Source: the human T2T-CHM13v2.0 reference genome, Homo sapiens. Taken from it: a stretch of DNA of 64,000 bases. Each line of letters begins with the position of its first letter. The first letter of the stretch is position 1. Both the position numbers and the translations under genes were made by a program. Below the pieces are notes generated by a model that worked only from the letters and a program-made list of their open reading frames with translations, was not told where the DNA came from and did no database searches. Positions 17,284-64,000 of this stretch are shown here, piece after piece. The DNA lies in assembly GCF_009914755.1 (NCBI RefSeq), contig NC_060927.1; one strand, 5' to 3'.

Positions 17284-18687
17284 ATAGCCAAGTGACCAAA
17301 GGAGTGGTAAATGTACTGGAGCAATTTAATGAGGGGAGATCTAGTAAGACTGGATGGGAGGAGGCTTCTGCTGTGTAATGATGCATGGGTAGGATTTGAA
17401 CAGGTCTGGGTAAATGTGTTCCTGGTGAATTCCTGGCACCACCACTTCTAGGTGGGTATGGAATCAGGAAGAAGGGTGTTAGGGAGCCATTGAATATAAG
17501 CAGGTGGGTTCCAGAAGTTCCATGTGGGCTCTGGAGCAGGCATCAGGTGGGAGCCAAGCCTGTGGGCTTGTCTTGAGGTGAAACAAGCTTACTGTCTTCA
17601 CTTAGATTACACGCCTACCTAAACTGGACTAGAGGAGCCGATAGACATTATAGAGAGACATGAAGCCTGCCTCTAAGCTCCCCAAATAACCTACTCTCCC
17701 TCTGATGGAAAAACTGAAATTAGGGAGGCCAGACAAGGAGTACTACAGAGGACAATTTACCCTTCTGAAAGTATCACAGAGGGAGGCACTGTGGGTTGCA
17801 GAGAACAGGTGTGCAGGAGTTTAGGATTCAACCAGTAATTCAGTGACCATTAGTCCCATGCCAGGCTCATCAACACATGTTAGGGCATAGGATGCATCAG
17901 CACAGAGCTGCCTCTGAGAGCTAGCATAGAGAGCGGGTGGATGGGGAGGGGTCCTGATGTGCCTGGGGAAACTGAGGCAAGAGACAGGGACATGAAGTAG
18001 AAAGCTATTTATGTATTCAGGAATGAAAGAACAAGGGTCAGACCTGGGTTAGTGGGAGTCAGGGCAATGAGACTGAGGAATAGACATGAGAGACGTTGCC
18101 AAGAAAGACCATTCAGGGCCTGGTACTGGATAGCAAAAGCAAGGACAAGGAAAACATCTCGTAGGTTTACATGTTTTACCCCAGAGTCTAAGGCAATATG
18201 TTGTTAGTGGTGCCACTGACAAAGACGAGGGAAGTGGAGAGGGCAGCTAGTTTGTAAGAGAAGAGAGAGGATTTAGCTTTGGGCAAAGCAACATCAAAGC
18301 AGAAAATCCCATGATCAGTAATAGAGCTGGGCAAGAGGACACAACTACAAGGACAGATTGGAGGCCCTGATGAGGTCGTCATGACTTATACTTCCAGGCA
18401 TGCGTAGGTGTTGATGCCTCCTCTAAACCACCACTGCCGTTTAGTGATAGCTTCTTCAAGTTTATGGGCAGAAGACAAATCAGGACCACTTAAAAAGATT
18501 TGGAAATAACTCATTGAAGCTATGTATTGGAATCAATAGATCAAATGACGCAAAGGTAGAGCATCTGCAAAGACAGTGAGAGGAACAGGAATTCTGTTTA
18601 AGTAATAAATATATAGCTTTAATACATAAAAAAAAAACCCGCTAGGTTTCCATGTGCTACTCACATGTTGCTTTTGGCATTCCTCAG

Positions 18688-18804
18688 GAAAATACAACTG
18701 TATATTACTTAGTCTTAGATGTGCAAGAATCGGACTGTTCGGTCCTATCCAGGAAATACTGGAATGACTGTGAGCCACCTGATTCCAGACGTCCATCTGA
18801 AATA
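18688..18804 (+). CDS. HRG: HRG exon 2 (aa 62-100)
   Basis: cag|GAA...ATA|gtaagt; [17 protein letters not shown]...PSEI. Confidence 0.97.
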
Positions 18805-19690
18805 GTAAGTAAAGAGGGCACCTTCACTCTGCTCTTTTCATTCTTATTTTCCATCTACTCTGTTCACTCAGCCAATGCCTGGGCTAACACAGTAGAAGAG
18901 AAAGGGCAGCTTTTGCCTTGAGATTCATGAAGATGATGTTAACCTTGAGCAATACTCTTGAGAGTCTTTCCTGGGAACCCAGTTCAAGACAACTCAGCAG
19001 GGTGTGTGGTCCCATCAAAGAGCATAACCAGCTGTGGGTCCTTGGGTAAATCATCTAATAACATCCCTCCACTTTGGTGTTTTTTGACTGTAAAATAAGA
19101 AGTGGGTTTAGGAATTCATGGACTCTAAGGGCCTTCCACTCTTGACAGTCTACAGGTATCAGAATCTATGAACTTGTAATTGTGTCCTATGAACAATGGT
19201 CCTATTTTCAGGAATGGCCAAAGTAATTACTTGCAGTGAGGAATTGGGTCTTGCTCAGCACCTAGGATATACACTGAGGAATAAGATCTGGCTTTGCATG
19301 TGGGAGGTGGGTATTGACATGCCAGGCTCTCTGACACAGGTGGAGAACATGAAGATGAATAAGCAGAGATTCAAGATTTCATTTCCAGAAAATGAGAGGT
19401 TCACACTCCTGGAACTTTCACCACTTTTTCCCTTGAAAATGTTTGGGGTATGGCCATGATGCTTTAAATAGTTTCTCGCTGGTTCTCCTGAGGATTTTGA
19501 GTGCCAACAGGATGCAGCACACAGAAACTGACTAAGAAAATGCAGGGTTTGAGACAAGCTTTGATGAAAGAAATGCATTTTTAAATGAACAGTAGGAGGA
19601 TGTTGCATCACCTTTTTGCTCTTTCATATCTGACCTGAGGAAGGCAGGATGCAATGACTCAGCAAGTCCTCAAGAGCCTCTTTCTTACAG

Positions 19691-19781
19691 GTGATCGGAC
19701 AATGTAAGGTAATAGCTACAAGACATTCCCATGAATCTCAGGACCTCAGAGTGATTGACTTTAACTGCACCACAAGTTCTG
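19691..19781 (+). CDS. HRG: HRG exon 3
   Basis: cag|GTG...TCTG|gtatgg; VIGQCKVIATRHSHESQDLRVIDFNCTTSS. Confidence 0.97.
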
Positions 19782-20291
19782 GTATGGTAATCTGTTAAAT
19801 TGCTAATTAATTCTTGATTAATACAAATTCAATCATACAGTGGTATTTGTCTCATCTATGTACATATGTATTCATATATATTCAGATGTATTCATGTATA
19901 TCTATGATGTACATGAAAGAAAAGCCTTCATAGACTCCATTATTATTCATTCTCCAGAGAATAGAATTGAGACAAATTTCCCTGGTACTGGTACACCTTC
20001 TTTTAAAGAAATTCAACACATAAAAATAGAGATTTAGGAGAGGTAGGTTAGCCTCATTATAGATATAGGCTTTGGAGTCAGGCTTGCTTTAGCTTGAGTC
20101 ATCATCTGCCAGTTGTATAGTCTTGGGAGGAAGTAAAGTCTTGGGACTATGAAGTAAAGGTTATGACACTTTCTATTTAAGACAAAATAATTGATGCTCA
20201 AAGAAGTTAAATGACTTGGCCTCAAGAACAAAGCCAAGATATTGTGAAGATGTGACACAATCCCAGGAGTATTAACTCTAAATTCCACAGC

Positions 20292-61343: not shown

Positions 61344-62095
61344 TGTTTGTGAGCCTTCACTGGAAACACACATTCTGGTCAGCCTCGACTACTCCTGTCC
61401 ACTTCCCCCTGGACAGTGCTCCCTCATGCATTTCCCCATCCTCCCAGTGTTCAGCTACTGCATCTCTACTTTTCCTTCCTCTCTGTCTCAGAACTTCACA
61501 AAATCTCTTCCACTCTTCATGTTTTCCACACAATTCCCCATTACAATCTACCTTCTCCCATGACTATGAACCTGAAGCTATTTCAGTCAGGCAGGGATTC
61601 TTAGACACCTTTCCCTAGCTTTGGAGATAGTTTATAAGAAATAATCACCACGCCCTGCACATATATTAATATTACCTCATTCACTTCTCAAAAACACCGT
61701 TAAAATATTATGATTTTCTACCATTTACAGGTGAGAAACCTAAGGCTCAGAAAGGTTATGCGACCCTGCCTTGCTTGGGATCACATAGGTAAGTGGCAGA
61801 GCTAGATTGGAATCCAGGTTGGACTTACTGCCGAGCTCATGTTCCTGCCCCACCCCTACAAGGGCCCCATTTGCTCCCACTGACCCTTCTCCAGGGACTC
61901 CAGGGAGAATCAACTGGCAAGTTAGACATCCTAACACAACAAAACTTCAAACTTTATGTTTTCAAACCTTGAAGATACACATTTGCTAAGGACAAACCCA
62001 TGTCTGTAACCTACCTTTAAAACTCCTCTCTCTGAATAGTCTAAATTTATTTAAAAGTTTGCTTAGGTTTTGTGAATGCAAACCACGATATCCAC

Positions 62096-62777
62096 CGTAG
62101 GGGCAAAAAGGTGTGATGCCTTTCCTTACAGATGCGACCCTTATAAGGGTCTTACAACAACAAAAAGGGTTAACAAGGGAAAGCATAGCATATTCATTTA
62201 ATCCAAGTTTTTATAGCATGGAAGTCTTCAGGATGAAGACCCAAACACACAAGTGACACTGTTCGTTGTTAGGCTTAAGTCGACGAAGACTGTACAACAG
62301 TATAAAATGTGATTGGATTAATAGGGAAAGATCCCATAGTAATAGACGGTCAGGGGAAACCCAGCGAGGCCTTCAGTTTGAGTTCTCCATGGCCCCTCTG
62401 TGTGGCAATTCTTGCTTCTGGGTATAGGGCCCAATCCCTCTGGAATATGGATCTGAGGACCTATTATCAGACAGGGTATATCCTGGAATTTCTTTATGGC
62501 CAGCTCCTACAAAGAAAGGCCCAGGGGGGAAGGTAGAGCTATATTTTAGGTTTTATGGCTGTTTGGGGGCAGAGGTATTTCACTTTCTGGGACCTGCCTG
62601 GGGGAAGAAGAATTCTAGTTTCTATGGTGCCTTAAGGGAGAAAGGAGAGCAGGAGAAAGTAGAGTGGGAGAAGGTCAAACAGATCTCGCTTCTGAGGCCC
62701 TTTTGGTTTCCTTCAGTTCAAAGGACTCAGCATATCAAGGCACCACAGTTTGGAACATCGTATTCTGGGTCCCAACA
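62096..62777 (-). mobile_element. MER34/MER39-like LTR at the copy-2 / copy-3 junction (more diverged)
   Basis: cgtaggggcaaaaagg ... gggtcccaaca, homologous to the other junction LTRs. Confidence 0.7.
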
Positions 62778-63639
62778 ATATTCAAGCGAACACAGGAGTG
62801 GTAAACGTACTGGGGCTACGTAATGAAGGCGGATCTATTAGGATTGCATGGGAAGAGGCTTCAGCTGTGTAGTGATGCATGGGTAGGATTTGCATAGGAA
62901 GAGGGTCTGGGTAAAGGCATTCCTGGTGAATTCCTGGCACCACTACTTCTAGGTGGGTAGGGAATCAGAAAGAAGGGTGTTGGGGAACAATTGAATATAA
63001 GCAGGGGGTTCCAGAAGTTCTGTGTGGGCTCTGGAACTGTCATTATTTGGGAGATGAGCCTGTGGGCTCATCTTAAGGCAAAACAAGGCTACTGTTTTCA
63101 CTTCGATTCTTTGCTTACCTGGAGTGGATTTGAGTGGCTGAAGACATTATGGAAAGACATGAAGCCTCCCTTCTCTCTCCCAAAATAAACTACTCCCTCT
63201 TTGGTGAAACAACTGAAATCAGGAGGACAGACCAGGAGCACTACAGAGTACCACAGGAGTGCTACAAAGCAATGTACCCTTCTTAATGTATCAGAGAGGG
63301 AGCACTGCAAGTTGTAGAGAACAGGAGTGCTGGAACTTAGAATTCCATTCAGTGACCTTACTCCCATTCCAGACTCTGCTCCAGGTTATAGCACAGCGTG
63401 CTTCAGCACAGAGCTACCTCTGAGAGCTAGCATACAGAGTGGGTGAGTGGGAGAGGCCCCAGGGTGCCTGGGGAATCTCAGGCAGGCGACAGGGACATGA
63501 ACTTGGAAGTTATTTTATGTATGCGGGAATGAGGGCCAGACCCAGGCAGTGGGAATTAGGGCAATGAGAATGAGGAATAGACATGAGAGATACTGCCAGT
63601 TGGTTGATGTTTGTCATGCATTTAGAAAATGCAAAGTTA
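62778..63639 (+). pseudogene. Start of HRG duplicate copy 3 (intron-1 sequence fused to intron-4 sequence; exons 2-4 deleted)
   Basis: 62778-63597 is homologous to HRG ~17284-18100; 63598-63639 is homologous to HRG ~21990-22030. Confidence 0.8.
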
Positions 63640-64000
63640 GGCCGGGCATAGTGGCTCATGCCTGTAATCCCAGCACTTTGGGAGGCCGAGGTGGGTGGAT
63701 CGCCTGAGGTCAGGAGTTTGAGACCATCCAGGGCAACATGGTGAAACCCCGTCTCTACTAAAAATACAAAAAATTAACCAGGTGTGGTGGCACGCACCTG
63801 TAGTCCCAAATACTTGGGAGGCTGAGGCAGAAGAATCGCTTGAGCCCCAGAGGTGAAGGTTGCAATGAGCCGAGATTATGCCACTGCACTCCAGCTTGGG
63901 CCACAGAGTGAGATTCCATCAAAACAGAAAGAAAAGAAAAAGAAAAAGAAAGAAAGAAAAGAAGGAAAGAAACAAAGAAAGAAAGAAAGAAAGAAAGAAA
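63640..64000 (+). mobile_element. Alu with (GAAA)n tail
   Basis: Full Alu; the tail runs to the window end. Confidence 0.9.

What the first reader, a model, noticed from the sequence alone, without database searches (positions are those of the whole stretch)
17284..64000. Head-to-tail array of at least three exon-1-less HRG cassettes downstream of HRG
Seen: the block from HRG intron 1 through exons 2-7 and ~4 kb of 3' flank recurs in the same orientation at ~32564-45683 (13.8-kb period) and ~46376-62095 (16.4 kb), and again from 62778. None of the copies includes the promoter or exon 1. Copy 1 exon 2' differs from HRG exon 2 at 17/117 nt. Each copy has private THE1, MLT2A1, L1 and Alu insertions, so the array is old (inferred to predate simian THE1/MLT2A1 activity). 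I do not know of these copies being described as HRG pseudogenes, but could not check annotation.
Basis: seen in the sequence. Interest (0 to 1): 0.8.

Follow-up and report, generated by a model that had tools for sequence, protein, structure and literature searches.

The report
Dead tandem copies of HRG gene
Downstream of the human plasma-protein gene HRG lie three old, broken, promoter-less tandem copies of the gene; two are already annotated as the pseudogenes HRGP1 and HRGP2, so this is a real but ordinary and largely known feature.

Summary
A unit running from HRG intron 1 (16685) through exons 2-7 and about 4 kb of 3' flank (to 31968) recurs head-to-tail at 31969-45768, 45769-62178 and from 62179. 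No copy holds exon 1 or the promoter.

Both are dead: they have lost splice donors, stop codons, frameshifts, kb-scale deletions and repeat insertions.

Copy 3 is not in the hub's table. DNA fetched beyond the window shows a 4.1-kb remnant. It keeps part of intron 1, bits of introns 4-6 and a 66-nt piece of exon 6. It ends about 0.8 kb before the KNG1 start.

The units differ by 12-25% (K2P 0.14-0.27). All large insertions examined are private to one unit, so the array is old.

Its history is a mosaic. A 595-bp HRGP1/HRGP2 tract is 99.5% identical, which points to recent gene conversion. Two blocks are only 5-8% diverged in all three long units, and this is unexplained.

Verdict: unprocessed pseudogene array made by unequal crossing-over. 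It is already known in substance and of low interest.

The parts
16685..31968 (+). Unit 0: the parent unit inside and behind the live HRG gene. It runs from the last 2 kb of intron 1 through exons 2-7 (18688-27996) plus 3,972 bases of 3' flank.
   Evidence: Homology to the later units starts at 16685, directly after a private Alu (16384-16690).
31969..45768 (+). Unit 1 (13,800 bases) = HRGP1. Pseudo-exons are 2' 37091-37207, 3' 38115-38205, 4' 39687-39853 and 7' 41534-42621. Exons 5 and 6 are missing; the unit-0 equivalent 22163-25190 is absent at 40471/40472.
   Evidence: The donors of 2' (GT>CT) and 4' (GT>TT) are lost. Exon 7' has two in-frame stops and frame changes, and the His-Pro repeat run is collapsed. 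Exons 2'-4' read open for 125 codons.
32655..35462 (-). LTR-internal-LTR retroelement private to unit 1, with an Alu nested at 34136-34392. The LTRs are 32655-32997 and 35119-35462. I believe it is MaLR/THE1-like, by recall of the LTR ends only.
   Evidence: direct repeats 2,464-2,466 bases apart. (LTR pair 79% identical, K2P 0.25; short duplicated target; empty site in units 0, 2 and 3). (16,322 first-look candidates in the genome, scored copies 80-85% identical).
45769..62178 (+). Unit 2 (16,410 bases) = HRGP2. Pseudo-exons are 2' in two halves (47807-47833 and 48287-48382), 3' 50580-50666, 4' 51856-52022, 5' 53027-53107, 6' 56371-56472 and 7' remnants (58014-58335 and 58322-58391).
   Evidence: Exon 2' is split by a 453-base insertion and its donor is CT. 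Exon 3' has a 4-base deletion. The exon 4' donor is TT. Exon 5' has a stop. The exon 6' acceptor is AG>AA. Exon 7' has a stop and a frame change and lacks exon-7 nt 297-1115.
47834..48286 (.). Dispersed repeat of about 450 bases (looks like a solo LTR) inserted inside exon 2' of unit 2, with a 6-base duplicated target.
   Evidence: HSPs overlap by 18709-18714. (4,076 first-look candidates; scored copies 84-90% identical, many full length).
48740..49711 (+). Private 972-base polyadenylated retrocopy fragment in intron 2' of unit 2 (AATAAA followed by an A-run).
   Evidence: It has only two long matches elsewhere in the genome: C8:127679698-127680609, minus strand, 92%; and C5:28859611-28860178, 77%. 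Three further hits are 37-51 bases long.
53750..54548 (.). Private high-copy repeat in intron 5' of unit 2. By abundance it looks like the 3' end of an L1; the name was not verified.
   Evidence: present in unit 2 only. (14,456 first-look candidates, scored copies about 87% identical).
62179..64000 (+). Start of unit 3, which runs on to about 66310 outside the window. It holds 1.4 kb of intron-1 homologue (62179-63598), a 38-base piece of intron 4 (63597-63634) and a private Alu (63639-63946). Beyond the window lie bits of introns 4-6 and a 66-nt exon 6' (64831-64896). There is no exon 2-5 or 7. The KNG1 start is at 67122.
39403..39997 (+). Gene-conversion tract between HRGP1 and HRGP2 (partner 51572-52166), covering exon 4'. 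It has 3 differences in 595 bases. A second tract lies at 40108-40470 (about 98% identical).
   Evidence: The flanks carry about one difference per 5-8 bases.
19328..19836 (+). Block A: the end of intron 2, exon 3 and the start of intron 3. It is only 5.8-7.0% diverged between all three long units. Partners are 37749-38260 and 49895-50722; the latter is interrupted by a private Alu at 50235-50554.
   Evidence: 453 of 500 columns identical in all three, against 6,982 of 9,187 overall. (3 places in the genome).. It lies inside the RefSeq 'enhancer 18689-19888' of the hub's table.
30522..30923 (+). Block B in the 3' flank, 5.2-8.0% diverged between all three long units. Partners start at 44354 and 60456.

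Best explanation
This is a tandem array of unprocessed (intron-containing) partial duplicates of HRG.

**How it formed (inferred).** Unequal crossing-over or a similar tandem segmental duplication copied a unit of about 15 kb. The left breakpoint of that unit lies in HRG intron 1 and the right breakpoint lies about 4 kb behind the gene. The same junction was then reused each time, so every copy lacks the promoter and exon 1, which carries the start codon and signal peptide. The copies were therefore dead as independent genes from the start.

**What happened since (shown).** They have decayed neutrally. They have lost splice sites and gained stops, frameshifts, kb-scale deletions and private Alu, LTR, L1-like and retrocopy insertions.

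**Sequence exchange (inferred).** Patchy gene conversion has kept some stretches alike.

**Identity of the copies.** Copies 1 and 2 are the annotated HRGP1 and HRGP2. Copy 3 is an unannotated remnant that ends just before KNG1. The array fills nearly the whole HRG-KNG1 spacer and makes no protein.
For: **Colinearity and orientation.** Colinear exon and intron homology on the same strand, with periods of 13,800 and 16,410 bases.

**Shared junction.** The three inter-unit junctions align with each other base for base across the point where unit-0 homology begins. This is what repeated use of one junction predicts.

**No exon 1 or promoter.** Neither has a second copy.

**Disabling lesions in every copy**. 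The exon 2' donor is GT>CT in both HRGP1 and HRGP2. The exon 4' donor is GT>TT in both, although that exon lies in the converted tract.

**Neutral-looking coding change**.
- Exon divergence from HRG is 17/117, 20/167, 11/81 and 18/102.
- By eye, about 25 of 125 residues are changed in HRGP1 exons 2'-4'.

**Divergence**.
- Over 9,187 three-way columns, K2P is 0.219 (units 0-1), 0.210 (0-2) and 0.136 (1-2).
- Over 1,363 four-way columns, unit 3 is at 0.216-0.272 from the others.

**Insertions private to one unit.**
- 3 of 3 colinear-looking Alu pairs proved to be independent insertions at different sites.
- The LTR element of unit 1 has empty sites in the other three units.

**Sequence exchange.** One tract has 3 differences in 595 bases between units 1 and 2, and the closest pair changes along the unit.

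**Annotation.** The hub's RefSeq table names HRGP1 and HRGP2 at the matching spans.
Against: - Two blocks (19328-19836 and 30522-30923) are three times less diverged than the rest in all three pairings. Simple neutral decay does not predict this.
- The exon 6' remnant of unit 3 differs from HRG exon 6 at 2 of 66 positions, while its flanks differ at 68 of 293 (Fisher p = 5e-5).
- HRGP1 exons 2'-4' keep an open frame of 125 codons.
- The LTR pair of the insertion private to unit 1 is more diverged (K2P 0.25) than units 1 and 2 are from each other (0.136 overall). This fits only if units 1 and 2 were homogenised after that insertion.
- I had no expression data, no population data and no other species. 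'Makes no product' and 'formed by unequal crossing-over' are therefore inferences.
Confidence: 0.93

Rival explanations
1. The dead cassettes are kept, at least in part, because they carry working regulatory DNA. On this view blocks A (around exon 3) and B (3' flank) are enhancer-like modules held in triplicate by selection, and they serve the liver genes HRG and/or KNG1.
For: - Both blocks are 5-8% diverged in all three pairings, against 12-25% elsewhere, and their edges are sharp.
- Differences within block A are spread over all three lineages (18 / 12 / 15 sites) and are not confined to one pair.
- The blocks have ordinary base composition: GC 0.40 and 0.49, with 2 and 0 CpGs. Low CpG decay therefore does not explain them.
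- Block A lies inside a RefSeq 'enhancer' feature of HRG (hub table) and is unique to the array in the genome.
Against: - Block A holds the coding exon 3 of the live gene. Conversion from a constrained donor gives the same picture without any function in the copies.
- In unit 2, block A is split by a private Alu and carries a 4-base deletion.
- A scan for the HNF1 site found nothing in either block, and the window total was at chance: 5 matches against 2.8 expected, with 16 of 100 shuffles reaching 5 or more.
- Part of block B is an old dispersed repeat.
- I had no cross-species or chromatin data.
Confidence: 0.1
2. The cassettes once worked as alternative gene bodies spliced to the single HRG exon 1, with one promoter serving several 3' cassettes. 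On this view they died only later.
For: - Every unit starts in intron 1, so each exon 2' acceptor lies downstream of the exon 1 donor on the same strand.
- The exon 2', 3' and 4' acceptors (AG) are kept in HRGP1, and its exons 2'-4' read open.
- Conservation limited to the exon is seen in the exon 6' remnant of unit 3: 2/66 against 68/293 in the flanks.
Against: - HRGP1 and HRGP2 share the exon 2' donor loss, which suggests death before or soon after they separated.
- Their exons diverge from HRG about as much as one neutral plus one constrained lineage would give, and most changes alter the residue.
- The exon 6' of unit 2 is as diverged as its flanks: 18/102 against 58/297.
- Each cassette follows a complete HRG 3' end with its poly(A) site, so read-through would be needed.
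- An open 125-codon frame is not unlikely by chance.
Confidence: 0.04
3. The repeat is an artefact: either an assembly duplication or similarity caused only by interspersed repeats.
For: None found. The first roughly 380 bases of the query (62400-62780; equivalent to unit 0 about 16905-17284) do belong to an old dispersed repeat.
Against: - The copies are 12-25% diverged and each has its own insertions and deletions, so they are not a collapsed or doubled assembly.
- Unique sequence is shared. In one search, query bases 472-1191 matched only array places among the 40 scored hits. In one search, block A matched only the three array places.
- RefSeq annotates two of the copies.
Confidence: 0.01

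Closest known systems
HRGP1 and HRGP2 (RefSeq pseudogenes, 'HRG pseudogene 1/2', in the hub's annotation table)
   Same: These are the same DNA. HRGP1 37090..42464 spans my pseudo-exons 2' to 7' of unit 1. HRGP2 48287..58329 runs from the second half of exon 2' to the exon 7' remnant of unit 2.
   Different: - The annotated spans cover only the exon-homologous part. The full repeat units are 13.8 and 16.4 kb and include the intron-1 homologue and 4 kb of flank.
- The table gives no exons for either pseudogene.
- It lists no third copy, and it does not show the in-register array structure or the conversion tracts.
- I found no paper describing them.
Unprocessed pseudogenes in tandem gene clusters that exchange sequence with the live gene. 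Examples recalled from general knowledge: HBBP1 in the beta-globin cluster, CYP21A1P in the RCCX module, GBAP1.
   Same: They arise by tandem duplication, retain their introns, accumulate disabling mutations and undergo gene conversion with neighbouring copies.
   Different: - Here every copy is truncated at the same intron-1 point, so none ever had its own promoter or first exon.
- The copies are far more diverged from the live gene (about 20%) than CYP21A1P or GBAP1 are from theirs (recalled). Disease-causing conversion into HRG is therefore less likely, except in block A.
Type-3 cystatin gene cluster on 3q27 (AHSG, FETUB, HRG, KNG1), itself a product of ancient tandem duplication
   Same: Same locus and same process: tandem duplication in the same orientation. 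All four genes lie on the + strand in the hub's table. PMC10388577 (passage seen) states that the four genes are related and lie close together.
   Different: Those duplications are ancient and whole-gene, and each gene is functional. The HRG cassettes are later partial duplications and are dead.

Membership tests
Unprocessed (duplicated) pseudogene of HRG | Colinear homology to the parent's exons and also to its introns and flanks | tested here: met
   13 and 16 colinear HSPs covering introns 1-6 and the 3' flank; exon hits in order.
Unprocessed (duplicated) pseudogene of HRG | Lesions that prevent a full-length product | tested here: met
   Searches show lost donors and acceptors, stops, frameshifts, deletions of exons 5-6 (unit 1), most of exon 7 (unit 2) and exons 2-5 and 7 (unit 3), and an insertion inside exon 2' (unit 2). 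No copy holds exon 1.
Unprocessed (duplicated) pseudogene of HRG | Not transcribed or translated into a functional product | not testable with these tools
   No expression data on hand.
Processed pseudogene (retrocopy) of HRG | Intronless copy with a poly(A) tail at an unlinked site | tested here: not met
   Introns are retained and the copies are adjacent to the parent.
Tandem array made by unequal crossing-over | Head-to-tail units in one orientation that share the same junction | tested here: met
   junctions at 31968/31969, 45768/45769 and 62178/62179 align with each other through the breakpoint; all chains are on the plus strand.
Tandem array made by unequal crossing-over | Repeat at the original breakpoints that could have mediated the first exchange | tested here: inconclusive
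   In unit 0 the breakpoint coincides with a private Alu (16384-16690) that has no clear target duplication. The three later junctions hold no Alu. The old dispersed repeat near each unit start begins about 200 bases inside the unit. Another copy lies just past the end of unit 3 (66308-66535).
Concerted evolution / gene conversion among array members | Tracts far more alike than their surroundings, and a closest pair that changes along the unit | tested here: met
   3 differences in 595 bases between units 1 and 2; units 1-2 are closest in 16685-18650 and 20811-22163, units 0-2 are closest in 25570-26900, and the pattern is star-like in 28216-31968.
Functional HRG paralogue (type-3 cystatin gene) | Complete open frame with start codon, signal peptide and intact splice sites | tested here: not met

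The most novel reading that the evidence does not exclude
The two low-divergence blocks, one around exon 3 and one in the 3' flank, are regulatory modules kept by selection in all three long units. On this reading the 'dead' HRG cassettes form a bank of redundant enhancers for the liver genes HRG and KNG1. A bolder version holds that the cassettes once served as alternative bodies spliced to the single HRG exon 1; the exon-limited conservation of the exon 6 remnant in the last copy hints at this.
Probability: 0.1. Interest if true: 0.45.

Novelty: already known. Interest (0 to 1): 0.15.

Why it matters
It matters only modestly.

1. **Read mapping.** HRG carries common missense variants and is used as a plasma biomarker (PMC10388577, abstract and passages). 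HRGP1 matches HRG exon 3 at 89 of 91 bases, and block A is 93% alike over 509 bases. Short reads and probes there may cross-map.
2. **Rearrangement.** Four same-orientation units, with tracts up to 99.5% alike, could act as substrates for non-allelic recombination. That could delete or duplicate parts of the HRG-KNG1 interval. This is untested.
3. **KNG1 upstream region.** The array reaches to within about 0.8 kb of the KNG1 start. Most of the upstream region of KNG1 is therefore HRG-derived debris.
4. **Teaching example.** It is a clean case of patchy concerted evolution in a pseudogene array.

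Tried and rejected
- **Shared Alus as an upper age bound.** Three colinear-looking pairs (25623/65846, 22850/53234, 26254/57187) all proved to be independent insertions 30-150 bases apart with their own target duplications. A BLAST piece that ran through flank plus Alu had been misleading.
- **Recombination between repeats at the unit boundary.** The old dispersed repeat near each unit start does not sit at the junction. Not supported.
- **Homology upstream of the Alu at 16384.** None was found even with word size 7 and lenient scores.
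- **HNF1 site scan.** There were 5 matches against 2.8 expected, and none lay in block A or B.
- **Rfam at gathering thresholds, 15000-64000.** 0 matches.
- **Pseudogene as template for the Pro204Ser variant of HRG.** The exon 5' of HRGP2 has the Ser codon, as does this assembly's HRG. However, PMC10388577 (passage) calls Ser204 'likely the ancestral' state, so no conversion is needed.
- **Literature.**
  - HRGP1 / HRGP2 as whole words gave 9 papers, all on plants, algae or fungi by title.
  - 'HRG pseudogene' gave 0 papers.
  - HRG + KNG1 + FETUB + pseudogene + duplication gave 0 papers.
  - Two broader searches listed nothing relevant by title.
  - Subscription journals and about 1.7 million PMC articles are not covered by these searches.
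- **Alignment caveats.** The first tblastn run printed no alignments and was repeated in tabular form. MAFFT rows around large indels are misaligned (exon 2; unit-0 coordinates 20085-20657, showing about 50% identity) and were not used.

Full report

Yes. BLASTN of window 15001-32500 against the whole window gave, besides many Alu hits, three colinear plus-strand chains of long matches.

| Chain | Pieces | Unit-0 span matched | Target span |
|---|---|---|---|
| First | 13 | 16685-32500 | 31969-46301 |
| Second | 16 | 16685-32500 | 45769-62713 |
| Third | 1 | 16865-18101 | 62359-63598 |

I define the units from these chains:
- Unit 0: 16685-31968
- Unit 1: 31969-45768
- Unit 2: 45769-62178
- Unit 3: from 62179

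The periods are 13,800 and 16,410 bases. The 3' flank inside the unit is 3,972 bases (27997-31968).

Exon 1 has no second copy at E <= 1e-3 with word size 7. The first 417 bases of intron 1 have none either.

The similarity is not due to interspersed repeats. In a search of the 3.1-Gb assembly, bases 472-1191 of a unit-3 query matched only array places among the 40 scored hits. The 509 bases around exon 3 matched only the three array places.

**2. What the copies contain.**

*Unit 1*
- It has exon 2' (37091-37207; donor GT>CT), exon 3' (38115-38205; 2 of 91 differ) and exon 4' (39687-39853; donor GT>TT).
- About 3 kb is then missing, removing exons 5 and 6 (unit-0 equivalent 22163-25190).
- Exon 7' (41534-42621) has two in-frame stops and frame changes, and most of the His-Pro repeat run is gone.
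- Its exons 2'-4' still read open for 125 codons, but by my eye about 25 residues differ from HRG.

*Unit 2*
- Exon 2' is split by a 453-base repeat.
- Exon 3' has a 4-base deletion.
- Exon 4' has a TT donor.
- Exon 5' has a stop.
- Exon 6' has an AA acceptor.
- Exon 7' is reduced to its first roughly 300 and last 70 bases.

*Unit 3*

This unit could be followed only by fetching the next 10 kb. It holds:
- 1.4 kb of intron-1 homologue;
- a 38-base piece of intron 4;
- a private Alu;
- rearranged pieces of introns 4 and 5;
- a 66-nt exon 6' with an in-frame 36-base deletion and a lost acceptor;
- part of intron 6.

It stops at about 66310, at the unit-0 equivalent 26159. KNG1 starts at 67122 according to the hub's table. 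'At least three cassettes' is therefore right, but the third is a stub.

**3. Annotation and literature.**

The hub's RefSeq table lists HRGP1 (37090..42464) and HRGP2 (48287..58329). Their ends match my pseudo-exon limits to within a few bases at the 5' side, so units 1 and 2 are known pseudogenes. No third pseudogene is listed before KNG1.

I found no paper on them.
- HRGP1 / HRGP2 as whole words hit 9 papers, all on plants, algae or fungi by title.
- 'HRG pseudogene' hit none.
- A five-term search hit none.
- Two broader searches listed nothing relevant by title.

The library misses most subscription journals, so this does not prove the array is absent from print.

**4. Age.**

Divergence between units:

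| Columns compared | Pair | K2P distance |
|---|---|---|
| 9,187 three-way | units 0-1 | 0.219 |
| 9,187 three-way | units 0-2 | 0.210 |
| 9,187 three-way | units 1-2 | 0.136 |
| 1,363 four-way | unit 3 against the others | 0.216-0.272 |

Every large insertion I examined is private to one unit.
- Three Alu pairs that looked colinear are independent insertions at different sites, each with its own target duplication.
- Unit 1 holds a 2.8-kb LTR-internal-LTR element with a nested Alu and a short target duplication. Units 0, 2 and 3 have the empty site.
- The LTR ends of that element look like those of MaLR/THE1 elements. This is my recall, and no repeat library was on hand. The family is very abundant (16,322 first-look candidates).
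- Its two LTRs differ by K2P 0.25. That is about the same as units 0-1 and 0-2 in the same intron (0.25 and 0.23).

The array is therefore at least as old as that insertion, and probably not much older. [quoted passage not shown]

With recalled neutral rates of 1.0-2.5e-9 per site per year, K of about 0.21-0.25 gives roughly 45-100 million years. I cannot narrow this without other species.

**5. The history is a mosaic.**

| Region (unit-0 coordinates) | Pattern |
|---|---|
| 16685-18650 and 20811-22163 | Units 1 and 2 closest: raw differences 0.112 and 0.030, against about 0.20 to unit 0 |
| 25570-26900 | Units 0 and 2 closest: 0.168 against 0.23-0.25 |
| 28216-31968 | All three about equidistant: 0.12-0.16 |

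A 595-base tract covering exon 4' (39403-39997 / 51572-52166) has only 3 differences. It is followed by a 110-base patch with 24 differences and then a second tract about 98% alike. That is recent gene conversion between the two pseudogenes.

Right at the LTR insertion site (unit-0 coordinates 17299-17500), units 1 and 2 are as different from each other (0.185) as from unit 0. Neighbouring windows give 0.05-0.11. This fits conversion being blocked next to a large heterology. It also explains why the LTR pair looks older than the unit 1-2 distance. The units may therefore have arisen close together in time and been partly homogenised later.

**6. Unexplained features.**

*Blocks A and B.* Block A (19328-19836) and block B (30522-30923) are only 5-8% diverged in all three pairings.
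- In block A, 453 of 500 columns are identical in all three units. In block B it is 359 of 400. Overall it is 6,982 of 9,187.
- The edges are sharp, and the differences are spread over all three lineages.
- Base composition is ordinary.
- Block A contains the coding exon 3 and lies inside a RefSeq enhancer feature.
- Block B partly overlaps an old dispersed repeat.
- Either repeated conversion or constraint could give this picture. An HNF1 site scan gave nothing.

*Exon 6' of unit 3.* It differs from HRG exon 6 at 2 of 66 bases, while 150 bases on each side differ at 68 of 293 (Fisher p = 5e-5). Unit 2 shows no such contrast (18/102 against 58/297). A short conversion tract confined by divergent flanks is my preferred reading. 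A period of past coding constraint is not excluded.

**7. Mechanism.**

*Shown*
- The units are head-to-tail and in one orientation.
- They share the same junction.
- They lack exon 1.
- They are riddled with disabling lesions.
- They exchange sequence.

*Inferred*
- One initial tandem duplication had breakpoints in intron 1 and 4 kb behind the gene.
- Expansion followed by unequal crossing-over between units.
- Neutral decay came next, because no copy had a promoter, start codon or signal peptide.
- Deletions then trimmed unit 3.

In unit 0 the left boundary coincides with an Alu that has no clear target duplication. The original breakpoint region may therefore have been remodelled there.

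**8. Verdict.**

This is a real, old array of unprocessed pseudogenes, and two of its members already carry official names. The in-register unit structure, the third stub reaching to about 0.8 kb from KNG1, and the conversion tracts are extra detail rather than a new kind of thing. Interest is low. The only reading with some novelty is that the low-divergence blocks are functional regulatory DNA, to which I give about one chance in ten.

Noticed in passing
48740-49711: A 972-base insertion private to HRGP2 intron 2' ends in AATAAA plus an A-run and has no long open frame. It looks like a retrocopy of an mRNA 3' end. It has only two long matches elsewhere in the genome: C8:127679698-127680609, minus strand, 92% identical; and C5:28859611-28860178, 77%. 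The parent gene is not identified.
   Followed up: partly
16384-16690: The Alu in HRG intron 1 sits exactly where homology to the downstream units begins, and it shows no clear target-site duplication. The three later junctions have no Alu. The original breakpoint in the live gene may have been remodelled, for example by a deletion linked to the Alu.
   Followed up: partly
L009:831-896 (window-equivalent 64831-64896): The exon 6 remnant of the third copy is 64 of 66 bases identical to HRG exon 6, while its flanks are 23% diverged. The high identity stops within 2-3 bases of both exon edges.
   Followed up: partly
19328-19836 and 30522-30923 (partners 37749-38260, 49895-50722; 44354-, 60456-): Two blocks are three times less diverged than the rest of the unit in all three pairings. 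The cause, conversion or constraint, is open.
   Followed up: partly
53027-53107: HRGP2 exon 5' carries the same Ser codon at the position of the HRG Pro204Ser variant as this assembly's HRG. This agrees with the statement in PMC10388577 (passage seen) that Ser204 is likely ancestral.
   Followed up: partly
41140-41182: A 43-base fragment 93% identical to HRG exon 7 nt 610-652 lies about 350 bases upstream of the exon 7' of HRGP1, out of order. It is a small local duplication or rearrangement.
   Followed up: no
62400-62780 (equivalents about 16905-17284, 32180-32560, 45980-46370) and L009:2308-2535: An old dispersed repeat (802 first-look candidates; scored genome copies 70-78% identical) lies near the start of every unit. 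A further copy, about 70% identical, lies directly after the truncated end of unit 3, just before the KNG1 upstream region.
   Followed up: partly
22638-22777: A GA-rich microsatellite of about 140 bases in HRG intron 5 is absent from the equivalent place in unit 2.
   Followed up: no
29524-29828 and 59681-59985: Units 0 and 2 each took an Alu at nearly the same position of the 3' flank but in opposite orientations. These are independent hits at one spot.
   Followed up: no
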